From assembly GCA_031548435.1 (NCBI GenBank), contig JAVBRA010000007.1, positions 67,955-131,954 on the forward strand: a DNA stretch of 64,000 nt, written 5' to 3'. Of this stretch, positions 50,769-58,507 are shown piece by piece. Each line of letters opens with the position of its first letter. Position 1 is the first letter of the stretch. The translations under genes and the position numbers were made by a program. Under the pieces are notes generated by a model that saw nothing but the letters and a program-made list of their open reading frames with translations, was not told the origin of the DNA and ran no database searches. The DNA is from Rikenellaceae bacterium. Its GTDB lineage: Bacteria > Bacteroidota > Bacteroidia > Bacteroidales > Rikenellaceae.

Positions 50769-50980
50769 ATACGCTTCGCCGGTTTAAAGGGCGGATTCAT
50801 TTCGCCTGCCGGCGTGGCCATCCTTTTTGTCATTGCCCAAAAGCAGCCCAAAAGGCTACGGGCCCGACAAAATTCTCGCTGAAGGTTCCCTATCGGGTGC
50901 AATGACGAGGGATTTGTTATACTCCGCTTCTTCCTTGATAAAAAAACGCAACCAAAAACATCAAGCGAAGGGAATAAACC

Positions 50981-51129
50981 CAGTGTGCAACATTTCACCT
51001 CAAAATGCCGTAAAATCGCCTTTTTAAAAGGGATTAAAACAAAAAAACAGGAACCTACAAAAATTGTAAGTTCCTGCACTTCAGAGCTGATGGCGGGAAT
51101 TGAACCCGCGACCCCTTCCTTACCAAGGA
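50981..51129. repeat. Distal ~149-bp direct repeat of island 2 (partial tRNA-Thr 3' half plus downstream region)
   Basis: Near-identical to 56382-56530 (a few substitutions or 1-nt indels by eye). It includes 45 nt of the tRNA-Thr 3' half (51085-51129) and a copy of the tRNA terminator hairpin. Confidence 0.85.
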
Positions 51130-51292
51130 TATGTGACACAGAAAGATGCGGTTCATTTCCATCTGAAAATCAATCCATTGTAAGGTTCCAAAAAGGCTGA
51201 TTGAAGTGATGTACAACACAGTGTGCAACTACTCGAAATCTTGATGCTCCTGCTGGTTAATATTTTATTTTGATCCTATTATAATGGAAAGG

Positions 51293-51769
51293 TTATATTT
51301 GGTGTAATTTCATTCTGGAGCAGTCCACAATCAATTTGTGCTTCTGCAAGAACTCGCAGCCTAACACTCCTACTGCAATTTTTCTTTTGTTTATCTGAAA
51401 GTAGTCGCACAGACAGGGATCAATGTAAAACACTTCGGAATAATTCTCCCCCTCGACTTCAAAATCAAGTTTGACCATCTTACATATCCGCCTCACTCCA
51501 TCCCTGCATACAATCCGCTTAGAGCCGACCTCTGCATAAGCAGGTTTTTTGCAATAATAATTTCTTATTTGCTCTTCTGCCGGAGGCTCCCAGTGAATAA
51601 ACTCCATGAAGCATTTATCAAGCATATTGTACCTTGTTCCGGTATCTACCAGAAAAGAAAATCCTGCGCCCTCGACCATAACAAAAAGAGTCGGCGTTCC
51701 TAACCTACTTTGATCCAATTTATAACCGTTTTTGTTTGGTGTCATAAAGCAATACTGTTGGAATCCCAC
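51293..51769 (-). CDS. Retropepsin-like (clan AA) aspartic protease
   Basis: 158 aa. 'FSFLVDTGTRYNML' carries the D-T-G active-site motif. The C-terminal 'IAVGVLGCEFLQKHKLIVDCSRMKL' resembles the 'GILG.DFL....v.iDy....l' end of bacterial retropepsin-like domains. Confidence 0.6.
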   Translation of the reverse strand: MGFQQYCFMTPNKNGYKLDQSRLGTPTLFVMVEGAGFSFLVDTGTRYNMLDKCFMEFIHWEPPAEEQIRNYYCKKPAYAEVGSKRIVCRDGVRRICKMVKLDFEVEGENYSEVFYIDPCLCDYFQINKRKIAVGVLGCEFLQKHKLIVDCSRMKLHQI

Positions 51770-51816
51770 ATAAATCCATTAAGCGAAAGTTACTACCTGA
51801 TATAATTCCCTGCGAT

Positions 51817-52239
51817 TTAATCGTCTTCCTCCATTTGTTGCTTTATAAAGCTATCCATCGCCTTATCCCACCGATGCTTTTCCCACTCGAAGTAACTTTC
51901 CATCTCCACAATCATCTTGTCTTGGGGGTAACCACGAGGGAATTTCCATTTTTTATTGACTCTTCCCATAGGGGGAAGATTTGCCCTAAAATGAATCTCC
52001 GTATCACCTGCCACATTGTCAATCACACAAAAAGCAGCAGGTGATGCCAAAGTGATGCTACTCGAAGATAGCTTTGTGACCCTTAAATTCCCATCTTGCG
52101 TCAAGTGATTTATGAGCAATTCGTATTTCACCTGCATTCCTCCCTGACTGGTAACATCTCTGCGCACACCTTCCTTACTCTCTTTGGTTATCTTATAGAT
52201 AATGAAGAGTGCAGTGCCAATTATAATAACCCACAACAT
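51817..52239 (-). CDS. Small single-pass membrane protein, hypothetical
   Basis: 140 aa. N-terminal helix 'MLWVIIIGTALFIIYKI'. It starts 5 nt after the stop of the upstream TerB-like gene. Confidence 0.5.
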   Translation of the reverse strand: MLWVIIIGTALFIIYKITKESKEGVRRDVTSQGGMQVKYELLINHLTQDGNLRVTKLSSSSITLASPAAFCVIDNVAGDTEIHFRANLPPMGRVNKKWKFPRGYPQDKMIVEMESYFEWEKHRWDKAMDSFIKQQMEEDD

Positions 52240-52243
52240 AATT

Positions 52244-52693
52244 TTACCTCCCTATATTTCCTCCATTAGCAATATAACTCAAAACGACTTGCATCGCTTT
52301 TTCTTCATCATCTTTCATCATTTCCAGAGAAAGAGACGCAACAAGTTCATAGATAAACTCGGAGTTAAACCCGAGTTTCATCGCTATAAATTCACAAAAA
52401 TTGATTTCTCTTTCAGAACATTCGCCATCAGCTATCATTAACATAACCATTTGGGTTATATATTTTACTCTATCCTCTTCGGTATTAGGATAAGCGTCTC
52501 TAACCGATGAGGTATCATTAAGTACTTTAGGGAGGTCGTTAATATCAATACCTTCTTTTGACAAGATGAAGCATACGTAAAGTTTCTCATCTTCTGTAAA
52601 TTTACCATCCGCATAAGCCAAAACAATGAGGTCTCTCAGTTTACACAGTTTCTGTTCTTGCTGCTCATTTCTAAACAAATCAAATAGTCCCAT
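52244..52693 (-). CDS. TerB-like (tellurite-resistance TerB/DjlA N-domain-like) protein
   Basis: From 'MGLFDLF'. There are two 'ADG' repeat helices, 'LIVLAYADGKFTEDEKLYV' and 'MVMLMIADGECSEREINFC', characteristic of TerB-like domains. Confidence 0.6.
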   Translation of the reverse strand: MGLFDLFRNEQQEQKLCKLRDLIVLAYADGKFTEDEKLYVCFILSKEGIDINDLPKVLNDTSSVRDAYPNTEEDRVKYITQMVMLMIADGECSEREINFCEFIAMKLGFNSEFIYELVASLSLEMMKDDEEKAMQVVLSYIANGGNIGR

Positions 52694-53370
52694 TTTAATT
52701 AAAAATTTACCCCGCCCGTCCCAAGGCAGGAATAAATACAAAAAAGAAAAGCGTGGGACTGATAGACCTATTCCAACCAGTAGGCCCTAGGAAGCCTCGA
52801 CAATGAAATAAGCAACAGCCCACGCCCATATTCAGAAAATATGATGCGTGAGAAGAAGTGCCTATTCTCTTGTCGAATGAATTTCCTAGGTTCACTGGCG
52901 AGAATAAAGCTAAACACTTTCCGTGTTCAAATATGTGCGTACCATCCGGTACACTCACAAAGATAATGAATATTTGACACAGCCAAATGCTTCTTCTTCT
53001 TTGAGGCTGTTGCTATTATGGTCGATGCTGGTCTGTTCGCTAAAAGATAGAAACCCTCAGATACCTTGAGGGCAGATGATTCAGCCTAATATCCTATCAT
53101 AATGGGTGGGGATTCGAGATACTGTGATTTATACTGGAGATAGACTGGGTAATATCGAATTAAGGGTTTCTTGTGGATTTTTTTCACCTATTCAGATAAT
53201 TTTCGTGCAACCTATCCAGCGAGGAGGGGGAATATCCCCGCACTTCAAATGATGGGGCGGGTTCTTTTGGTGTATATTGCGCTTGTGGTGTGGGATAAAA
53301 AGTCCATAATATCATAATTATATGTATGAACTCTCCGGGAATTTTTATCTCCTTGCTTTTCCTCGCATAA

Positions 53371-54963
53371 TTATTGTCCCTCGGTCATTTTTTTGGTTTG
53401 AGCTAGTATGTTTTGGTTTAAATTATCAGTGTGCCACTCTTCGAGGGCTAACTTTGGCTCAACACCCACATAAAAAGTCAACTCAACCGCCATGACTTTT
53501 TGTACATACTTCGCATCTTCGGATAGGGTGACTATAGAGTCATGTATGGTGTAGATTGGCATTTGCCCCTTTTTTTCCTCCCAAATTCTTTTGCAGCACC
53601 GATGCAACATTATTTGGCTCTCAATAGCCTGCAAAAGCACCGCAAGCCGGTTGTGTTGATTTTCCTGCTTCAACCCCCGGTGCTTTTTCTTTATTATCCG
53701 GAACAACTCGGCCACCTCCGGGTATAACTCCTGTTCAAATATGCGCTTCATCTGATTAATTTCAGGGTTGTCATGCTGCCCGCCGTTGCTTGAAAACAGC
53801 ATATAAAACATCAGTGTCTTTGCATCTTGCCTAACCAATACCCTCTTGGGGTTGATTTTCTTGTTGGCAACCTCAGCTATATCTTCATACATTCCCCCGT
53901 CCGATGCTTTTTGTATATACTCCTTAAAATCGTCCGCATTGACCCTCTCAAAAAAGGCTTGAATTTCACCCAAAACCACCTCTGGGAAATAATTCCGAAT
54001 ATTTTCGGGGAGATCACTAAATTTCAGAGGCAAATCAGATGCATCATTCCAAAACAAAGGGTTCAATATCAGGCAGGAGAGGTAAGGCTGGCAGTTTTTT
54101 ACATCCACACTCGTCAGATTTTGCCCTTTGTATGTAACAAAGTTCCGGAAATCCTTTTGCAGGTTGGTTAGCACCGAGTGAAGCCGGTGGATATTTTCAT
54201 CTATATGAGCCTGATACTGCTTCTGCTCGATCCTCCCAATATTCAACAGTGCTGCATAATATTGGGTTACTGGGTATTTCCGTTTACCTGTATCTTTGTT
54301 TATATTCCATGACTCCCTCGAAGCATCCCGCATTTTTATCTCTTTCAGCAGGTAGGCATAACTTTCTGCTGTTGCGTCGATAATCAATCCTCCATCATCG
54401 TACCAGTGGAATAAATAGGGGTAATCTTCTTTGTCCGGCGATTTTTCATACTTTTTGATTTCATCGGCCAAAGTTGAATCTACTTTCCGCAGTTCAAACG
54501 GGACATTCGCATACTCATCTGCCCATTTATAGCCGGTCGATTTTTCTCCTATTATATACCTGCCATCGGTTAAAACAACCCCTGTATGAAGCAAGTAGTA
54601 CTTATATCGAGTAAAATCCTTGTCACTATCCCGCAGAATTTTCATGGTAATCGGAACAAACCCTTGCTCATCAATCAAATCACTGCTTCTTGCAGGAATG
54701 GAGGCAATCAGGCTCAAAAATTCATAAATCCTTTCTTCGTTGAATTTTTTATCCCGGGGAAAACCATTTTCATAAGGTGGGTACTGTTCGAGGTGTTTCC
54801 TTAGATCAAAATTGGCTGGCAGCAGAAAATACTCTTTATTACCCTTGCCAGCATAGGTGAAGAAAACAAAATCTCTCCCACCAACAGGATTCCCTTTCTT
54901 AACCTCTTTACCCGAATCTTTCCTCAACGGAAACATCCAGAACCAAGCAAATCTATTAGCCAT
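53371..54963 (-). CDS. Hypothetical protein with family-A DNA polymerase / T7-like RNA polymerase palm-fingers motifs
   Basis: 530 aa. Candidate motif A is 'LTSVDVKNCQPYLSCLIL'. Candidate motif B is 'RQDAKTLMFYMLFSS' (R-x3-K-x7-F). Candidate motif C is 'IYTIHDSIVT' (H-D-S as in T7 RNAP 'HDSFGT'). The ~290-aa N-terminal region is unrecognised. Confidence 0.4.
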   Translation of the reverse strand: MANRFAWFWMFPLRKDSGKEVKKGNPVGGRDFVFFTYAGKGNKEYFLLPANFDLRKHLEQYPPYENGFPRDKKFNEERIYEFLSLIASIPARSSDLIDEQGFVPITMKILRDSDKDFTRYKYYLLHTGVVLTDGRYIIGEKSTGYKWADEYANVPFELRKVDSTLADEIKKYEKSPDKEDYPYLFHWYDDGGLIIDATAESYAYLLKEIKMRDASRESWNINKDTGKRKYPVTQYYAALLNIGRIEQKQYQAHIDENIHRLHSVLTNLQKDFRNFVTYKGQNLTSVDVKNCQPYLSCLILNPLFWNDASDLPLKFSDLPENIRNYFPEVVLGEIQAFFERVNADDFKEYIQKASDGGMYEDIAEVANKKINPKRVLVRQDAKTLMFYMLFSSNGGQHDNPEINQMKRIFEQELYPEVAELFRIIKKKHRGLKQENQHNRLAVLLQAIESQIMLHRCCKRIWEEKKGQMPIYTIHDSIVTLSEDAKYVQKVMAVELTFYVGVEPKLALEEWHTDNLNQNILAQTKKMTEGQ

Positions 54964-55114
54964 ACTACTTACCTATATAACAATTAATCGTAATTGTCAA
55001 ATTCCTATCCATTATGATAGGATATTCTGTAAATACAAATATAACCATATTCGTTTCTCCGTCCTATTTGTAAAAAAAATGCCACCCCTTCCGAAGTGGC
55101 ATTTGCTCTCACCA

Positions 55115-56329
55115 TCAAAATAAATTCCTCATGGCCTCAACCATCCGGCTATTCTCGAAGCTGTCCAGATAAATCTGCGTGACCTTTTCTGACGAATGAC
55201 CCAATGATTCAGATATTAGGGCAACATCCACCCCCGACCTTTTCAAAACCGTCGCATAGGTATGCCTCGCCACATAGGTGGTAATGGGTATTGCCAACCC
55301 AAGCAAACCACTGATTTCTCTCAGATGCAGGTTTACCTTTCGGAGTGTTTTATGAATCCGGTTACATATCTGCTGCTCCGTCCGATGGGTTTCTTTATCC
55401 AGAATCGGGAAGATATAATCATCTTTCGAGTGCTCAGGATTGCTGTATTTAGCCACAATCTGCCATGCCGGTTCCACAAGGATACAATGGATCACCTTTT
55501 TTGTTTTGCATCGGGTGTACTGTACCCTGCCTGCCTCCACATCGCAATACCTCAGCATGGCAATATCCCGGAAGTTAATCCCTGCCGTGTAGTATGAAAA
55601 CAGGAAAATATCTTTTGCCAGAGCCATATACGGGCTATTGTGGTGAGGCAGATTTAAGTCAATCAACTTTTTAACCGTCTCTTTGCCCAACGCTCTCTTT
55701 CGGGTGGCTGCCCAAAGGCTGCCCACCTTATAACCCTCAAATGGATTGGTTTTGATTGTGGGCATACCATCCTTAATAGCCTTGTTATACGTGGCTTTTA
55801 GCACACTCATTTTGGTGGCTATGCTGTTCGAAGCATTTCCCTCCCCTTTCAAAAACTGCTCGAAGTCTTGCAAAAATGGAGCATCAATAGCCATGATCCG
55901 GCTTTCCCCTCTACCATATTTCAACAGGGACGACAGGGTGTAGGAGTATTTTATGGCTGTGTTGACCTTGCCAGCCTGTTTAAGCAGGGAAATCTGCTCT
56001 TCGAAACTCTCCTTGATGGTTGGAATAACCTGTTTTGATTTTGCCCCTGCCAGCGCACCTAAACTCACTGCCATATCCAAAGCTTCAAGCCGCACCATTT
56101 GCTTGTTTAAAGCCTCTATTTTCGAGTTTATCCGCAGTTGGTGGACTTCTCTGTCCGGGCATTCTTCGGTCAGTTTCTGGACCTTATCATCCCAATGCTG
56201 TGGGTTGACAGCCACTCCGGTGCTGACCATTTTAACTTTCCGGCCTTCAGTGAGCCGGATGAATAAAGGGGCTGTGTTGTTCTTGTAAATCCGATCTGTC
56301 CTGCAAATTACTTTAATGTTGATTTTCAT
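55115..56329 (-). CDS. int: Tyrosine site-specific integrase (Bacteroides-type), homologous to 15500-16729
   Basis: The start is set at 'MKINIKVICR'. The catalytic region is 'TYVARHTYATVLKRSGVDVALISESLGHSSEKVTQIYL'. Same domain order as the island 1 integrase. Confidence 0.9.
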   Translation of the reverse strand: MKINIKVICRTDRIYKNNTAPLFIRLTEGRKVKMVSTGVAVNPQHWDDKVQKLTEECPDREVHQLRINSKIEALNKQMVRLEALDMAVSLGALAGAKSKQVIPTIKESFEEQISLLKQAGKVNTAIKYSYTLSSLLKYGRGESRIMAIDAPFLQDFEQFLKGEGNASNSIATKMSVLKATYNKAIKDGMPTIKTNPFEGYKVGSLWAATRKRALGKETVKKLIDLNLPHHNSPYMALAKDIFLFSYYTAGINFRDIAMLRYCDVEAGRVQYTRCKTKKVIHCILVEPAWQIVAKYSNPEHSKDDYIFPILDKETHRTEQQICNRIHKTLRKVNLHLREISGLLGLAIPITTYVARHTYATVLKRSGVDVALISESLGHSSEKVTQIYLDSFENSRMVEAMRNLF

Positions 56330-56369
56330 TGTTTTAAGCTCTTTTTGCGAGAACCTCAAAACCTCTGAC

Positions 56370-56393
56370 CAGTGTGCAACACAGTGTGCAACA
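56370..56393 (+). promoter_or_regulatory. Tandem CAGTGTGCAACA x2 (candidate integrase arm-type sites)
   Basis: cagtgtgcaaca at 56370-56381 and 56382-56393, just upstream of int. Further copies of cagtgtgcaac are at 50981-50991 and 51219-51229. Confidence 0.45.
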
Positions 56394-56530
56394 TTTCACC
56401 TCAAAATGCCGTAAAATCGCCTTTTTAAAAAGGATTAAACCAAAAAAAACAGGAACCTACAAAATTGTAAGTTCCTGCACTTCAGAGCTGATGGCGGGAA
56501 TTGAACCCGCGACCCCTTCCTTACCAAGGA
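56382..56530. repeat. Proximal ~149-bp direct repeat of island 2 (overlaps the 3' half of the intact tRNA-Thr)
   Basis: See 50981-51129. Identity ends inside the anticodon stem of tRNA-Thr. Confidence 0.85.
56442..56477 (-). terminator. Rho-independent terminator after tRNA-Thr
   Basis: On the minus strand, stem caggaac / gttcctg is followed by TTTTTTTT. Confidence 0.65.
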
Positions 56531-56557
56531 AGTACTCTACCCCTGAGCTACATCAGC
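56486..56557 (-). tRNA. tRNA-Thr (anticodon GGT)
   Basis: Minus-strand cloverleaf. Acceptor GCTGATG/CATCAGC. D-arm TAGCTCAGGGGTAGAGTA. Anticodon stem CTTCC/GGAAG with loop TTGGTAA. T-loop GGTTCAATTCC. Confidence 0.9.
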
Positions 56558-56636: not shown

Positions 56637-57191
56637 TCAGAACGCGTATCCGATCCCGATGGCCCCCGACGGGCGGAAGTCGCCCGAGGTGCCGATGATC
56701 GGAGTGTAACCGATGCGCCAGGTAAATCCACGGTCGACGGGCTTGAGGCGGAACATCACGCTGACCGTCCCGATAAAATGGCCCGCATTCTCGCCCCGAC
56801 CACCATCTTCGTAGCTGTACAGGGTCACCTTTTGCGTCAGGTAGGTGACCCCCACGCCGAACTCGATCGAGGCCGAGGAAGTCGGCCTGCCCAACACGTA
56901 ATTAATGCCTGCCGGAATCGTGACATACGAACGATCTTGGGAGTAACCGCCATACTCATCGTCGATAAACACCTCGTTTGCGCCGAAACCCACCCCCACA
57001 CGGTATCCCAGCCCCAGCCCGGCGCCATTCCGGAAGCGGCTGTCGTAAAAAGCCCCCATGATCACGCCGGCCCCGCCAAACTCCATATAGAACTGCCGGC
57101 CGGATGCATGCCCGGAGTGTTGGGCGCGCGCCGGAACTGCAACCGACGACAAAAGCACCGCCAGGCAAAAGAAAATCCTTATCACTCTCAT
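56637..57191 (-). CDS. Small outer membrane beta-barrel protein, tandem paralog 1
   Basis: The start is set at 'MRVIRIFFCLAVLLSSVAVPARAQ' (signal peptide). Gly/aromatic-rich alternating strands. C-terminal 'IGIGYAF' is the OMP signature. Confidence 0.65.
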   Translation of the reverse strand: MRVIRIFFCLAVLLSSVAVPARAQHSGHASGRQFYMEFGGAGVIMGAFYDSRFRNGAGLGLGYRVGVGFGANEVFIDDEYGGYSQDRSYVTIPAGINYVLGRPTSSASIEFGVGVTYLTQKVTLYSYEDGGRGENAGHFIGTVSVMFRLKPVDRGFTWRIGYTPIIGTSGDFRPSGAIGIGYAF

Positions 57192-57240
57192 TCGTTTTTT
57201 TATGGAAATACGGGATTCATCCTCTCCCGTGACACAAAAA

Positions 57241-57783
57241 TCAGAACGCATACCCTGCCGATGCTCCCATCCGGATGGCCGTATTGCCCGCAAAGTTGAA
57301 CAACGGAGTAAGCCCGATGCGGCAGGCGAATCCTCCCTTGACAGGCGAGAAACGGTACATGAACGAGAGCGATCCGGCGCAATACCGTCCATCGACGAAC
57401 TCGTCGGCATAATGCACATCCACCTTCTCGGTAAAGCAGGTAATGGCTGCGCCCATCTCGAACGTGTGGGAGCTGCCGGGCTTGCCGAATACCCAGTTCA
57501 CTCCGGCAGGGATGGTAACGTAACCCCGGTCACTGAGACGATCGGAAGCGCCGCTGACAAGCAGACCGCCTTTGGCGCACCCGATCCCGACACGGTAACC
57601 GGGCCCGAGTCGTTGTCCCCGTTCGAAACGGCTGTCGAAATTGACGGAGAACAAAATTCCGGCTCCTCCCAGTTCGACATCAAATTGCCGGCCGGATACA
57701 TCCCCGAAGCGTTGGGCGCGCGCCGGAACTGCAACCGACGACAAAAGCACCGCCAGGCAAAAGAAAATCCTCAAAGCATTCAT
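57241..57783 (-). CDS. Small outer membrane beta-barrel protein, tandem paralog 2
   Basis: 180 aa. 'MNALRIFFCLAVLLSSVAVPARAQ' and C-terminal 'SAGYAF'. Confidence 0.65.
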   Translation of the reverse strand: MNALRIFFCLAVLLSSVAVPARAQRFGDVSGRQFDVELGGAGILFSVNFDSRFERGQRLGPGYRVGIGCAKGGLLVSGASDRLSDRGYVTIPAGVNWVFGKPGSSHTFEMGAAITCFTEKVDVHYADEFVDGRYCAGSLSFMYRFSPVKGGFACRIGLTPLFNFAGNTAIRMGASAGYAF

Positions 57784-57810
57784 CCGGTTTTATTCAGGAA
57801 TGGAGACCGA

Positions 57811-58368
57811 TCAGAAAGCATACCCCATCCCCACCGCCATCAAGGGGACGATGTCGCCCGAAGTGCCAACCGACGGGGTAAAGCCGATGCGCCAGGTAAA
57901 CCCTCCGTTGACGGGCGAAAGGCGGTACATGAACGAGAACGTTCCCGCAAAATGCCCTGCCGCACTGGAATCGTACCAATTATATACGTACACCTTTTTC
58001 GGAAAGCAAACCAGCGAGGCGCCCACCTCAAACGTGTGGGAACTGCCCGGCTTGCCGAACACATAGTTGATCCCGACGGGGATCGTCAGGTACGAACGGA
58101 ACTCGGAGTAGTCTTCACCATAATACCCTTCGCCATAATCGTCACCAACAACCACATCGCCATAAGCGAACCCGACTCCCAGACGGTAGCCGAATCCAAG
58201 CCGTTGGCCCGCCTCAAAACGGCCGTCGAAGTTGGCCGAGAACAGAACTCCGGGCCCTCCCATCTCTACGTAGAACTGGTGGCCGGAAACGCCCGAACCC
58301 GTCTGCTGGGCGCGCAAAGAGAGCGACCCCAAAAGCAGAAACGCCGCAATAACACCAATTTTTTTCAT
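57811..58368 (-). CDS. Small outer membrane beta-barrel protein, tandem paralog 3
   Basis: The start is set at 'MKKIGVIAAFLLLGSLSLRAQ'. 'GHQFYVEMGGPGVLFSANFDGRF' parallels its neighbours. C-terminal 'GMGYAF'. Confidence 0.65.
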   Translation of the reverse strand: MKKIGVIAAFLLLGSLSLRAQQTGSGVSGHQFYVEMGGPGVLFSANFDGRFEAGQRLGFGYRLGVGFAYGDVVVGDDYGEGYYGEDYSEFRSYLTIPVGINYVFGKPGSSHTFEVGASLVCFPKKVYVYNWYDSSAAGHFAGTFSFMYRLSPVNGGFTWRIGFTPSVGTSGDIVPLMAVGMGYAF

Positions 58369-58507
58369 CGTCAATTCAATCAGTTTGGGTGGAAAATATA
58401 AAACGAATATACGAAAAAATTTTGTTTGTTGCATTTTAATGCATGAATTTATTCCGGATATCGTATTTCGAATACATACCGTTATCTTTGCGGTTTAAAA
58501 ACCGACC

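What the first reader, a model, noticed from the sequence alone, without database searches (positions are those of the whole stretch)
53371..54963. 530-aa island protein with family-A/T7-like polymerase motifs A, B and C and an unrecognised N-terminal half
Seen in the C-terminal ~240 residues, in the canonical order:
- Motif A candidate: 'LTSVDVKNCQPYLSCLIL' (Asp followed by Q-aromatic-L; compare Pol I 'DYSQIELR' and T7 RNAP 'DGSCSGIQHFS').
- Motif B candidate: 'RQDAKTLMFYMLFSS' (R-x3-K-x3-F-x3-F; compare Pol I 'RRSAKAINFGLIYG' and T7 RNAP 'RSVTKRSVMTLAYGS').
- Motif C candidate: 'MPIYTIHDSIVT' (compare T7 RNAP 'HDSFGT' and Pol I 'VHDE').

There is no recognisable 3'-5' or 5'-3' exonuclease region. 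The first ~290 aa are unfamiliar to me.

Inference: this is a highly diverged single-subunit right-hand polymerase, DNA or RNA. It may serve the element's own replication or a template-dependent defence function. The evidence is motif matching by eye only.
Basis: partly seen in the sequence, partly recalled or inferred. Interest (0 to 1): 0.7.

Follow-up and report, generated by a model that had tools for sequence, protein, structure and literature searches.

The report
Mini Pol I-like polymerase of integrative element
The 530-aa protein is a stripped-down relative of DNA polymerase I, fused to a DNA-binding winged-helix domain, and is the conserved partner of the integrase in small tRNA-inserted mobile elements across Bacteroidota; it most likely starts the element's own DNA replication, a kind of enzyme predicted in 2008 but tested biochemically in only one distant relative.

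Summary
An AlphaFold model (pLDDT 89) matches only family-A DNA polymerases among the top 50 PDB hits. No Pfam, NCBIfam, PADLOC or PDB sequence match exists.

- **Domains:** residues 1-41 are disordered. Residues ~42-197 form a winged-helix domain, weakly closest to plasmid RepA_N initiators. Residues ~198-530 are a minimal thumb-palm-fingers core with no exonuclease.
- **Element:** the gene lies in a 5.4-kb low-GC element between 153-nt direct repeats at tRNA-Thr. An integrase sits directly upstream, as in 69 of 84 related loci, nearly all from Bacteroidota.
- **Family:** it fits the features of the "TV-Pol" family (Iyer et al. 2008). One member, SCCmec CcPol-MP, is a proven dNTP primase.
- **Likely function:** a site-specific replication initiator and primase-polymerase of the element. 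This is inferred, not shown.
- **New feature:** a conserved ~20-nt DNA motif lies just 5' of the gene, with inverted copies downstream. It is a candidate cognate site.

Verdict: real, a new member of a known kind, moderately interesting.

The parts
53371..54963 (-). Gene for the 530-aa polymerase-like protein (stop codon 53371-53373)
   Evidence: ORF list. An identical protein is called on an independent assembly contig. 116 homologues found by word search, and 7694 50%-identity cluster representatives at E<=1e-3 by profile search.
54841..54963 (-). Residues 1-41: poorly conserved, predicted disordered N-terminal tail
   Evidence: pLDDT 29-35 over residues 1-41. This part of alignment A1 is gappy and variable.
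54373..54840 (-). Residues ~42-197: added N-terminal domain with a winged-helix core (a1-b-a2-a3-b-b); candidate sequence-specific DNA-binding module
   Evidence: Stand-alone model has pLDDT 86.5. Foldseek gives only weak matches, best to staphylococcal plasmid RepA_N initiator N-domains 4pql/4pt7/5kbj (E 0.025-0.16, prob up to 0.92), then Fur/PerR, ArsR, MarR, ScpB and RecQ winged helices. Conserved 'GFVPI...DY..YLDYLi.TGVI..D..Y..G.KS.GYkW'.
53374..54372 (-). Residues ~198-530: minimal family-A polymerase core (two-helix thumb, Arg hairpin, palm, fingers), no exonuclease
   Evidence: Foldseek PDB and BFVD results. Secondary-structure order from the model. hhalign against T7 DNA polymerase.
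54145..54186 (-). Residues 260-273, 'RLHSVLTNLQKDFR': hairpin with invariant R260 and R273; by-eye counterpart of Pol I motif 2 (TGRLSS..PNLQNIP.R) and T7 RNAP R425
   Evidence: R260 and R273 are invariant in A1. Short strands lie at ~253-262 in the model. The correspondence to Pol I motif 2 is my own by-eye alignment (inference).
54064..54117 (-). Motif A region, residues 283-300 (catalytic D287; N290, Q292, P293, Y294, L295 conserved)
   Evidence: D287 and N290 are invariant, and Q292-L295 are >=90% conserved. D287 lies at the end of strand 281-288.
53788..53832 (-). Motif B / O-helix, residues 378-392 (R378, K382, F386, F390)
   Evidence: K382 is invariant and F390 >=90% conserved. Helix 378-390. 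Aligned to T7 DNAP R518/K522/Y526/Y530.
53527..53562 (-). Motif C, residues 468-479 (P469, T472-I473-H474-D475 invariant)
   Evidence: Beta-hairpin 471-473/476-480. Aligned to T7 RNAP IHDSFGT.
55115..56359 (-). Tyrosine integrase (Arm-DNA-bind_5 + SAM_5 + Phage_integrase), immediately upstream, same strand
   Evidence: Pfam. An integrase of the same cluster is present in 69 of 84 related loci, on the polymerase strand in most.
55072..55100 (-). GC hairpin plus T-run after the integrase stop: likely terminator separating the int and pol transcripts
   Evidence: Read directly from the sequence; not otherwise tested.
56378..56530 (.). attR: 153-nt direct repeat covering the 3' part of tRNA-Thr and ~100 nt beyond it
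   Evidence: the repeat finder family D1, 92% identity, spacing 5401 nt; sequences read.
50977..51129 (.). attL: second copy of the 153-nt repeat (tRNA 3' fragment)
   Evidence: Rfam sees a tRNA/tmRNA 3'-end fragment at 51093-51110.
56485..56557 (-). tRNA-Thr(GGT), the integration target
   Evidence: ARAGORN, Rfam. A tRNA gene lies 1.5-2.1 kb 5' of the polymerase gene in most of 47 related loci scanned.
55009..55023 (-). Copy 1 of the conserved motif (consensus ~AAATTTCCYANCATAATGGAKA), polymerase-sense, 46-60 nt 5' of the ATG; here part of the palindrome TCCTATC-ATAATG-GATAGGA
53091..53105 (+). Copy 2 of the motif, inverted, 266 nt 3' of the polymerase stop, inside a 630-nt stretch with no credible ORF
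51273..51287 (+). Copy 3 of the motif (2 mismatches), inverted, ~145 nt from the attL junction
51293..52678 (-). Variable cargo on the polymerase strand: TerB-like protein (52244-52678), 140-aa protein with an N-terminal hydrophobic segment (51817-52239), 158-aa retropepsin-like protein (51293-51769)
   Evidence: Pfam TerB E 5e-8. Gene calls on the identical contig. The 158-aa protein's cluster recurs in 9 loci, and its representative matches Asp_protease_2 at E 1.5e-4, below the Pfam cut-off. Weak PADLOC PDC-M08B hit, E 0.002.

Best explanation
The protein is a minimal family-A (Pol I-like) nucleic-acid polymerase of the TV-Pol kind. It has thumb, palm and fingers with an intact two-aspartate active site and no proofreading or 5' nuclease. 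At its N-terminus it carries a winged-helix DNA-binding domain.

It is the conserved replication gene of a 5.4-kb integrative element inserted at tRNA-Thr.

Proposed mechanism, all inferred:
1. The tyrosine integrase excises the element as a circle.
2. The winged-helix domain positions the enzyme at specific sites on the element. The best candidates are the conserved ~20-nt motif just 5' of its own gene and its inverted copies.
3. The polymerase domain starts DNA synthesis there, acting as a primase-polymerase that probably uses dNTPs.
4. Either it copies the small circle by strand displacement, or it hands the 3' end to the host replisome.

Shown here: the fold, the conserved catalytic residues, the winged-helix N-domain, the element boundaries, the strict integrase-polymerase linkage across Bacteroidota, and the motif and its arrangement.

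Inferred: catalytic activity, priming, substrate choice, the motif as cognate site, and replication of the excised form.
For: **Fold.** The AlphaFold model has pLDDT 89 and pTM 0.86. All top 50 PDB matches are family-A DNA polymerases (apPol, Aquifex/Bst/Taq Pol I, T7 DNAP, Pol theta), prob 1.00. The best BFVD matches are ~400-aa phage 'DNA pol I'-like proteins (E 1.6e-19, TM 0.74 on the target). The virophage Zamilon replication protein, which I take to be a TV-Pol-helicase fusion, matches at E 4.6e-5.

**Active site.** R260, R273, D287, N290, K382, Q445, E448, H474 and D475 are invariant over 50 sequences down to 26% identity. Motif B and the following 'LLQ' helix align with T7 DNAP.

**N-domain.** It has winged-helix topology, and its best (weak) matches are plasmid RepA_N initiator DNA-binding domains.

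**Context.**
- Integrase in 69/84 loci, mostly just upstream on the same strand, often with an HTH_17 excisionase between.
- A tRNA gene ~2 kb upstream in most of 47 loci.
- Cargo downstream varies.
- In many Bacteroidales relatives, a 90-aa protein, an AAA_24 ATPase and DUF3871 follow the polymerase gene.
- The polymerase is the only replication-type gene in the window's element.

**Motif.**
- 3 copies in the window, all inside the element, against 0.11 expected.
- Found in 30 of 84 loci (83 fetched plus the window), essentially all Bacteroidales: one sense copy at the 5' end of the gene and an inverted copy after the module.
- The two copies within an element agree more than copies between elements (permutation p about 0.01).

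**Precedent.** TV-Pols were predicted to be primase-polymerases of integrase-, resolvase- or transposase-bearing elements (PMC2579912). SCCmec CcPol-MP is experimentally a dNTP-using primase (PMC7581432, PMC10061031).
Against: - No biochemical data exist for this family.
- No helicase and no SSB-like partner is encoded in the window's element. CcPol alone cannot prime without its partner MP (PMC7581432).
- No evidence was found for circular or amplified copies. The short contigs carrying the element have no terminal overlaps, and the identical 5312-nt contig simply breaks inside the att repeats.
- The winged-helix assignment rests on weak matches (no Foldseek E <= 0.001).
- Nothing links the motif physically to the protein. 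Other roles are open, such as an RNA-level or recombination signal. A host-type -7 box lies just 5' of the sense copy (by eye), which puts the motif near the start of the host-made transcript.
- Sequence-profile links to Pol I are marginal (hhalign E 0.0023, prob 12%). Pfam DNA_pol_A does not hit.
Confidence: 0.6

Rival explanations
1. It is a single-subunit RNA polymerase, T7- or mitochondrial-like in function. It recognises the conserved ~20-nt motif as its own promoter. It then transcribes element genes, or makes RNA transcripts that prime replication, as T7 RNAP does at the T7 primary origin.
For: - Motif C is 'IHDS', the T7 RNAP form rather than the Pol I 'HDE' form.
- The motif is asymmetric, ~20 nt long, ends in ATAAT-GGA(G/T)A, and sits directly 5' of the gene. 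In size and layout this resembles phage promoters (the resemblance is by eye and from my own knowledge).
- UniRef auto-names several homologues 'DNA-directed RNA polymerase'.
- One of 50 members touches Pfam RNA_pol at E 0.074.
- Similar ambiguity is reported for the diverged phage divPolA2 (PMC11348598).
Against: - No RNA polymerase is among the top 50 PDB matches.
- The only informative profile alignment is to T7 DNAP motif B (E 0.0023), against T7 RNAP at E 0.096.
- At or near the steric-gate position (D287+5 to +7) the family has conserved bulky Q292 and Y294, where T7 RNAP has Gly (by-eye alignment, inference).
- The protein is 530 aa and lacks the large T7 RNAP N-terminal domain.
- The downstream motif copies are inverted, so as promoters they would drive antisense transcription into the polymerase module.
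- A host-type -7 box lies 13-22 nt 5' of the sense copy.
Confidence: 0.13
2. It is a primer-dependent gap-filling or second-strand DNA polymerase rather than an initiator. For example, it completes the complementary strand after the element enters a cell as single-stranded DNA, or repairs the junctions after integration or excision.
For: - The fold and catalytic residues are the same as above.
- CcPol without its partner only extends primers (PMC7581432).
- Rice (PMC10061031) raises second-strand synthesis as a possible role for such enzymes.
- No partner SSB or helicase is encoded in this element.
Against: - Host Pol I could do this job, so strict retention of the gene in 5-kb elements is hard to explain.
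- A fused winged-helix domain and a conserved cognate-looking DNA motif argue for site-specific action.
- No relaxase or transfer gene that would generate ssDNA is present in the element.
Confidence: 0.12
3. It is the effector or sensor of an anti-phage defence system carried by the island, making a template-dependent product analogous to reverse-transcriptase-based systems.
For: - The element carries small cargo genes of unknown role. One has a weak hit to a PADLOC defence-candidate model (PDC-M08B, E 0.002).
- Rice (PMC10061031) lists defence as a formal possibility for PolA-type MGE enzymes.
Against: - No PADLOC model hits the polymerase.
- The polymerase co-occurs with the integrase and excisionase, not with any fixed partner. 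The neighbouring cargo changes from element to element. That pattern is typical of a backbone gene, not a defence cassette.
Confidence: 0.04
4. It is a catalytically dead polymerase fold retained only as an origin-binding initiator (Rep-like) protein that recruits host enzymes.
For: - The N-domain's best matches are plasmid initiator DNA-binding domains.
- Rice describes vestigial polymerase remnants in some PolA-SSB pairs (PMC10061031).
Against: Every residue expected for catalysis and substrate binding (D287, D475, H474, K382, R260, Q445) is invariant across at least 50 diverse sequences. An inactive scaffold would not show this.
Confidence: 0.05

Closest known systems
TV-Pol family (Iyer, Abhiman & Aravind 2008, Biol Direct 3:39; PMC2579912)
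   Same: - Minimal family-A-like core without nuclease domains: helical thumb, hairpin with an invariant Arg, palm with two Asp, fingers with RxxxK.
- Size 400-600 aa.
- Encoded on mobile elements.
- One subset has an extra N-terminal domain and sits next to lambda-type integrases.
- Bacteroidetes members were listed.
- Predicted primase-polymerase.
   Different: - I could not obtain the 2008 sequences, so direct inclusion is unverified.
- Their N-terminal 'TV-PolN' was predicted to be all-helical, whereas this N-domain is an alpha/beta winged helix.
- There is no D5-type helicase here, either fused or adjacent.
- The conserved DNA motif and the tRNA-int-(xis)-pol layout across Bacteroidota were not described there.
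SCCmec CcPol-MP and the PolA-SSB primases of Bacillota (Bebel et al. 2020, PMC7581432; Rice 2023, PMC10061031)
   Same: - An A-family polymerase domain on an integrative element, next to the recombinase module.
- No proofreading.
- The only experimentally tested relative of this kind, and it primes DNA synthesis de novo with dNTPs.
   Different: - CcPol needs a separate OB-fold partner (MP), is followed by a helicase (Cch2), and is linked to large serine recombinases.
- In the window there is no partner gene, no helicase, a tyrosine integrase, and a fused winged-helix domain instead.
- In Bacteroidales relatives a 90-aa ORF follows the polymerase. Whether it is MP-like was not tested.
Diverged phage PolA variants, e.g. 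divPolA2 of barbaviruses (PMC11348598), and ~400-aa 'mini Pol I' proteins of uncultured marine phages (BFVD A0A516L5C2, A0A8D9FR19)
   Same: - Small PolA palm/fingers proteins lacking the exonuclease, with an unassigned N-terminal globular domain.
- They are among the best structural matches, including a Rheinheimera phage Barba31A 'DNA polymerase'.
- They show the same DNA- versus RNA-polymerase ambiguity.
   Different: - Those are phage genes in variable contexts.
- This family is almost absent from viral contigs (10 loci in IMG/VR) and is tied to integrases in cellular genomes.
Plasmid-specific origin-binding primases (ColE2 Rep; RSF1010 RepB' with ssiA/ssiB) - functional analogy from my own knowledge
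   Same: One element-encoded protein recognises specific sites on its own small replicon and makes the primer. In RSF1010, as I recall, the sites lie on opposite strands, like the inverted motif copies here.
   Different: Those enzymes have an unrelated catalytic fold (archaeo-eukaryotic-primase-like). No experimental link between protein and motif exists here.
Bacterial DNA polymerase I (Klenow/Klentaq/Bst) and T7 DNA polymerase
   Same: Overall fold; motif B; by-eye counterparts of motifs 2, A, 6 and C.
   Different: - No 5' nuclease and no 3'-5' exonuclease domain.
- Motif C is HDS, not HDE.
- Motif A is D-x-K-N-x-Q-P-Y-L instead of D-Y-S-Q-I-E-L-R.
- Longer fingers between motifs A and B (95 residues against ~50, by my count).
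- Not detected by Pfam PF00476.

Membership tests
Family-A (Pol I-like) polymerase superfamily | Right-hand thumb/palm/fingers fold superposable on Pol I-type enzymes | tested here: met
   Foldseek against PDB: 100 hits at E<=1e-3, and all top 50 are family-A DNA polymerases, prob 1.00, TM 0.28-0.37 over 400-480 columns. The model is confident (pLDDT 89).
Family-A (Pol I-like) polymerase superfamily | Two catalytic aspartates: motif A at the end of a palm strand, motif C in a beta-hairpin (H-D) | tested here: met
   D287, H474 and D475 are invariant in 50 sequences. They lie at strand 281-288 and hairpin 471-480. Motif C aligns to T7 RNAP IHDS.
Family-A (Pol I-like) polymerase superfamily | O-helix motif B, R-x3-K-x3-F/Y-x3-Y/F | tested here: met
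   hhalign pairs R378/K382/F386/F390 with T7 DNAP R518/K522/Y526/Y530. K382 is invariant and F390 >=90% conserved.
Family-A (Pol I-like) polymerase superfamily | Significant match to the curated sequence model (Pfam DNA_pol_A, PF00476) | tested here: not met
   No hit at E<=1 for the protein or for any of the 50 aligned homologues. No PDB sequence or profile hit. Membership is therefore at the level of fold and motifs, not of the curated family.
TV-Pol (PMC2579912) | Minimal core only: no fused or neighbouring nuclease domain | tested here: met
   No exonuclease Pfam hit. The N-domain is a winged helix. No nuclease gene in the element.
TV-Pol (PMC2579912) | Thumb built on two antiparallel helices, followed by a beta-hairpin carrying an absolutely conserved Arg | tested here: met
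   Helices 198-212 and 231-246 are followed by short strands at ~253-262 with invariant R260. The helix pairing was read from the secondary-structure string, not from a superposition.
TV-Pol (PMC2579912) | Fingers inserted after the first palm strand, with an RxxxK motif | tested here: met
   Residues 291-464 are helical and lie between the motif A strand and the motif C hairpin. R378-x3-K382 is present, with K invariant and R the majority residue.
TV-Pol (PMC2579912) | Encoded on a mobile element next to an integrase, resolvase or transposase, or next to or fused with a D5-type helicase | tested here: met
   5.4-kb element with att repeats at tRNA-Thr. Integrase adjacent here and in 69/84 loci. 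No helicase in the element.
TV-Pol (PMC2579912) | Recovered together with bona fide members (Sputnik V13, CcPol, Ma-LMM01 protein) in sequence-profile searches | not testable with these tools
   The paper's alignment file is not held and Sputnik is not in the collections. The first 50 kb of Ma-LMM01 gave no profile hit, and my candidate MAP_030 is unrelated. The only indirect link is a structural match to the Zamilon virophage replication protein, E 4.6e-5.
TV-Pol (PMC2579912) | N-terminal 'TV-PolN' domain of the integrase-linked subset (predicted all-helical) | tested here: inconclusive
   An N-terminal domain exists, but the model is alpha/beta winged helix. No TV-PolN sequence was available for comparison.
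PolA-SSB primases (CcPol-MP; PMC7581432, PMC10061031) | Small OB-fold ssDNA-binding partner encoded immediately downstream, followed by a helicase and serine recombinase(s) | tested here: not met
   630 nt without a credible ORF follow the gene. No remnant of the relatives' downstream genes is present. The recombinase is a tyrosine integrase. The fold of the 90-aa ORF in relatives was not tested (weak Pfam DUF3223 only).
T7-like single-subunit RNA polymerases | Match to Pfam RNA_pol (PF00940) or closest structural neighbours being RNA polymerases | tested here: not met
   1 of 50 members hits at E 0.074, below threshold. No RNAP is among the top 50 PDB matches. hhalign against T7 RNAP gives E 0.096 over motif C only.
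T7-like single-subunit RNA polymerases | Small residue at the steric-gate position of motif A that admits a 2'-OH (T7 G542) | tested here: inconclusive
   By-eye register puts conserved Q292 or Y294 there, both bulky. No structural superposition of the active site was possible with these tools.
RepA_N-type plasmid initiators (N-domain only) | Winged-helix N-terminal domain that binds origin iterons | tested here: inconclusive
   These are the best Foldseek hits but weak: 4pql, 4pt7 and 5kbj at E 0.025-0.16, TM 0.33-0.43. No Pfam hit was found.

The most novel reading that the evidence does not exclude
The winged-helix-PolA fusion is a one-protein replication system. It recognises the conserved ~20-nt motif present in inverted copies on the element, starts synthesis there without a separate primase, SSB or helicase, and copies the 5-kb circle by strand displacement. 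This would make these tRNA-inserted elements the smallest self-replicating integrative elements of gut and marine Bacteroidota. It would also be the first sequence-specific, self-priming family-A DNA polymerase. If instead it makes RNA from the motif, it would be a cellular-MGE single-subunit RNA polymerase with its own promoter.
Probability: 0.2. Interest if true: 0.75.

Novelty: new member of a known kind. Interest (0 to 1): 0.45.

Why it matters
- **An open enzymology question.** How a primer-dependent Pol I-type enzyme becomes able to start chains is unresolved, and only one such enzyme (CcPol-MP) has been tested. This family offers a second, differently built case: a fused winged helix instead of an SSB partner, plus an obvious candidate DNA site to use as substrate.
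- **Abundance without annotation.** The profile search returned 7694 cluster representatives at E<=1e-3 and 2347 at E<=1e-30, and 241 loci in species-representative genomes. The family is spread across gut Bacteroidales, marine Flavobacteriaceae and soil Chitinophagaceae. It has no Pfam or NCBIfam model, and its automatic names conflict. A proper family definition would fix the annotation of thousands of genes.
- **A class of mobile elements.** The family flags small tRNA-inserted elements that carry variable, possibly defence-related, cargo in human-gut bacteria.

Tried and rejected
1. **Sequence-only searches.** Pfam, NCBIfam, PADLOC, and PDB phmmer and profile searches found nothing. PHROGs gave only a weak hit to an unknown-function family (phrog_4756, E 1.3e-4).
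2. **Direct TV-Pol link.**
   - The supplementary alignment is not held and Sputnik is not in the collections.
   - I fetched the first 50 kb of Microcystis phage Ma-LMM01 and guessed that MAP_030, next to its transposases, was its TV-Pol. The family HMM and hhalign found nothing there. I did not fetch the remaining 112 kb.
   - A second homologue search with a Polaribacter member, hoping for named 2008-era genomes, showed only the top 120 hits and none from those genomes.
3. **Circular or plasmid form.** Ten whole short contigs have no terminal overlap. The identical 5312-nt contig ends inside the att repeats, as expected for an assembly break. No conclusion either way.
4. **Motif copies as inversion sites.** I looked for loci with the module flipped relative to the integrase. 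L008 has a divergent integrase, but it carries a different int/pol allele rather than an inversion of the L019 arrangement. Not supported, not excluded.
5. **A clade-specific motif in Flavobacteriia/Chitinophagia.** k-mer counting returned only conserved int/xis coding sequence.
6. **Remnants of the relatives' downstream genes** (90-aa, AAA_24, DUF3871) in the window's 630-nt gap: none found.
7. **Forced full-length hhalign to T7 enzymes**: unreliable outside motif B, so not used as evidence.
8. **Rfam scan of the element:** only the tRNA.


Full report
**1. The observation.**

The ORF at 53371..54963 (minus strand, ATG, 530 aa) is as described. The three strings are at residues 283-300, 378-392 and 468-479. 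The gene lies in a low-GC stretch, about 40% against 57-62% in the flanks. A 153-nt direct repeat bounds that stretch at 50977-51129 and 56378-56530 (92% identity, spacing 5401 nt). The right-hand copy overlaps the 3' part of tRNA-Thr(GGT) at 56485-56557. A tyrosine integrase (Arm-DNA-bind_5, SAM_5, Phage_integrase) lies directly upstream on the same strand at 55115-56359. This is a 5.4-kb integrative element.

**2. Sequence searches alone do not name the protein.**

Pfam, NCBIfam and PADLOC give nothing. PHROGs gives a weak hit to an unknown-function family. PDB gives nothing with either the sequence or a 50-sequence profile.

Homologues are nonetheless plentiful:
- 116 by word search, none with a Pfam domain.
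- 7694 50%-identity cluster representatives at E<=1e-3 and 2347 at E<=1e-30 by profile search.
- 241 loci in species-representative genomes, nearly all Bacteroidota: Alistipes, Odoribacter, Bacteroides, Prevotella, Dysgonomonas, Flavobacteriaceae, Chitinophagaceae and Cytophagales-type genera.

UniRef auto-names some of them 'DNA-directed RNA polymerase' and one 'DNA-directed DNA polymerase family A palm domain-containing protein'.

**3. Conservation.**

Alignment A1 has 50 sequences at 26-60% identity to the window protein. Its invariant residues include R260, R273, D287, N290, K382, Q445, E448, P469, T472, I473, H474 and D475. Q292, P293, Y294, L295 and F390 are at least 90% conserved.

The alignment adds two further conserved elements. 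One is 'hRLHSvlTNlQKdfRN' (260-273). By eye this resembles Pol I motif 2, TGRLSS..PNLQNIP.R, and the T7 RNAP GRVY hairpin. The other is 'LLQxIES' (443-449).

**4. Structure.**

The AlphaFold2 model built on A1 is confident (pLDDT 89, pTM 0.86), apart from residues 1-41, which have pLDDT below 50.

Foldseek against PDB returns 100 hits at E<=1e-3. All of the top 50 are family-A DNA polymerases: apicoplast Pol, Aquifex, Bst and Taq Pol I, mycobacterial Pol1, T7 DNAP and Pol theta (prob 1.00, E 2e-5 to 2e-4). No RNA polymerase appears among them. TM-scores are modest (0.28-0.37). I would expect that for a protein that shares the core but differs in its N-terminal half and in finger length.

Foldseek against predicted viral structures gives:
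- Best matches to ~400-aa proteins of uncultured marine phages, one of them named 'putative DNA polymerase I' (E 1.6e-19 and 1.2e-15; TM 0.74 and 0.66 on the target).
- Further down, a barbavirus 'DNA polymerase', the virophage Zamilon replication protein (E 4.6e-5), and giant-virus replication proteins.

hhalign of A1 against T7 DNAP aligns motif B residue for residue, together with the LLQ helix (E 0.0023). Against T7 RNAP only motif C aligns (E 0.096).

The secondary-structure order is:
- two helices (198-212, 231-246);
- a short hairpin carrying R260;
- a strand ending in D287;
- a long helical insert (291-464) containing R378-x3-K382;
- a hairpin with H474-D475.

This is the four-part minimal core that Iyer et al. 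give for TV-Pols (PMC2579912, read).

**5. The 'unfamiliar' N-terminal half.**

Only residues ~42-197 are extra. Modelled alone (pLDDT 86.5), the segment has an a1-b-a2-a3-b-b winged-helix core. Foldseek finds no strong match. The best hits are the N-terminal DNA-binding domains of staphylococcal plasmid RepA_N initiators (4pql, 4pt7, 5kbj; E 0.025-0.16, prob up to 0.92). Fur/PerR, ArsR/SmtB, MarR, ScpB and RecQ winged helices follow. I read this as a DNA-binding winged helix. The similarity to initiators is a lead, not a finding.

**6. Genomic context across relatives.**

I clustered ORFs from 83 fetched loci plus the window.
- The integrase cluster is present in 69 of 84 loci, usually immediately upstream on the same strand.
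- About 36 loci have an HTH_17 excisionase-like gene between integrase and polymerase.
- A Bacteroidales subset has a 90-aa protein (20 loci), an AAA_24 ATPase (17) and DUF3871 (19) downstream.
- What follows is variable cargo, for example a YoeB/YefM toxin-antitoxin pair in L002.
- A tRNA gene lies 1.5-2.1 kb 5' of the polymerase gene in most of the 47 loci scanned.
- The family is rare in predicted viral contigs: 10 loci in IMG/VR, all with the same architecture. It also occurs in some very large uncultured phage genomes and on one Hymenobacter plasmid.

In the window's element the polymerase is the only replication-type gene. Downstream come 630 nt without a credible ORF, then a TerB-like protein, a 140-aa protein and a 158-aa retropepsin-like protein.

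The polymerase is therefore a backbone gene of a widespread class of small tRNA-inserted elements, not cargo.

**7. A conserved DNA motif.**

A 30-nt inverted repeat flanks the gene, at 53088-53117 and 54997-55026. Its core, consensus about AAATTTCC(T/C)A(T/A/C)CATAATGGA(T/G)A, recurs in 30 of the 84 loci, essentially all Bacteroidales.
- One copy lies in the polymerase sense direction at the 5' end of the gene. It is 11-77 nt before the first in-frame start where the ORF call starts downstream of it. In many homologues the ATG inside the motif is the annotated start.
- One copy is inverted downstream. In several loci it lies about 45-50 nt after the stop of DUF3871, the last gene of the module.
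- The window has three copies (55009-55023, 53091-53105, 51273-51287), all inside the element, against 0.11 expected by chance.
- The two copies within an element match each other better than copies from different elements (mean 4.1 against 5.1 differences over 24 nt; permutation p about 0.01, n=12).
- By eye, a Bacteroides-type -7 box (TAnnTTTG) lies 13-22 nt 5' of the sense copy in several loci. This puts the motif near the start of the host-made transcript.

I cannot tell what reads this motif. Candidates are the protein's own winged helix (operator and/or origin), priming sites on opposite strands, a promoter for the enzyme itself, RNA-level pairing between the 5' and 3' ends of the transcript, or recombination sites.

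**8. Most likely function.**

Taken together:
- An intact family-A active site is under strong constraint.
- There is no nuclease domain.
- A DNA-binding domain is fused to the polymerase.
- The gene is strictly linked to the integrase and excisionase of small elements.
- A conserved element-specific DNA motif is present.
- The TV-Pol class was predicted to be primase-polymerases.
- CcPol-MP was shown to be a dNTP-using primase (PMC2579912, PMC7581432, PMC10061031).

I conclude that the protein is the replication initiator and primase-polymerase of the excised element. A preference for dNTPs is suggested by the closer resemblance to DNA polymerases and by bulky conserved residues (Q292/Y294) where the steric gate should be. 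That register is by eye.

Against this model:
- There is no helicase or SSB partner here.
- There is no evidence of circular or amplified forms.
- The protein-motif link is untested.

I put about 0.6 on this model. I put 0.13 on an RNA-polymerase or transcript-primer role, 0.12 on a primer-dependent gap-filler, and about 0.05 each on defence and on a dead scaffold.

**9. Comparison and novelty.**

The protein works like, and meets the listed features of, a TV-Pol. Formal co-membership with the 2008 set could not be tested.

It is not a member of the curated Pfam DNA_pol_A family (tested, not met). It is not a PolA-SSB pair (no partner, no helicase, a different recombinase).

New relative to the literature I could search:
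- the winged-helix nature of the N-domain;
- the phylum-wide tRNA-int-(xis)-pol layout;
- the minimal 5.4-kb form with no other replication gene;
- the conserved motif with inverted copies.

I therefore rate it a new member of a known kind, with moderate interest.

Noticed in passing
window 55009-55023 (-), 53091-53105 (+), 51273-51287 (+); also L001, L004-L006, L009, L015, L019, L020, L023, L025, L028 and others: A conserved ~20-nt motif (about AAATTTCCYANCATAATGGAKA). One copy lies at the 5' end of the polymerase gene and inverted copies lie downstream, in several loci just after the last gene of the pol-90aa-AAA_24-DUF3871 module. The window has 3 copies against 0.11 expected. The copies within an element co-vary (p about 0.01). 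What reads the motif is unknown.
   Followed up: partly
window 53225-53288: A 65-nt stretch of the non-coding region 3' of the polymerase gene is 80% identical to a non-coding stretch ~2 kb downstream of the polymerase gene in Dysgonomonas hofstadii (L025 10619-10682, and L090). It contains a GC-rich hairpin (cccgc...gcggg). It could be a terminator, a small RNA or part of an origin.
   Followed up: no
window 51293-51769 (-); cluster 6 in L001, L004, L008, L009, L015, L019, L020, L023: The 158-aa protein at the far end of the element belongs to a cluster that recurs at the distal end of related elements in 9 loci. The cluster representative resembles retropepsin-type aspartyl proteases (Asp_protease_2, E 1.5e-4, below the Pfam cut-off). 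The window protein has a weak PADLOC hit to defence candidate PDC-M08B (E 0.002).
   Followed up: partly
L001 10067-12324, L008, L009, L011-L013, L015, L017, L019, L020, L028 (not in the window): In Bacteroidales relatives the polymerase gene is followed by a conserved 90-aa protein, an AAA_24 ATPase and DUF3871. The 90-aa protein sits where the OB-fold partner MP sits in SCCmec CcPol-MP.
   Followed up: no
phage records LR756511.1 (395212-396222), LR756501/503/504; plasmid NZ_CP060788.1 (2920-4359): Distant relatives of the protein (23-25% identity; E 6e-15 for the best phage hit, E 1e-34 on the plasmid) are encoded in 0.6-0.7-Mb uncultured phage genomes and on a 35-kb Hymenobacter qilianensis plasmid.
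   Followed up: no
window 56637-58434 (-): Three tandem paralogous ORFs (260, 180 and 207 aa) with signal-peptide-like N-termini and similar C-terminal halves lie just outside attR. In the B. thetaiotaomicron locus L001, genes with OMP_b-brl domains likewise lie past the polymerase-distal end of the related element. This may point to a similar insertion neighbourhood.
   Followed up: no
homologues P0046, P0066, P0111, P0290, P0295, P0304: Public automatic names for this family conflict: 'DNA-directed RNA polymerase', 'DNA-directed DNA polymerase family A palm domain-containing protein' and 'hypothetical protein'. None of the libraries searched (Pfam, NCBIfam, PADLOC) has a model that covers it.
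   Followed up: partly
L002 1590-1618, 3427-3455, 4304-4344: The closest relative's element (62% protein identity) carries a mismatched version of the motif (TTTCACATCATAATGG). It also has its own repeat, GTAAAAGTAAGTGTGCA, just 5' and 3' of the polymerase gene, and a related palindrome further downstream, next to its YoeB/YefM toxin-antitoxin pair.
   Followed up: no
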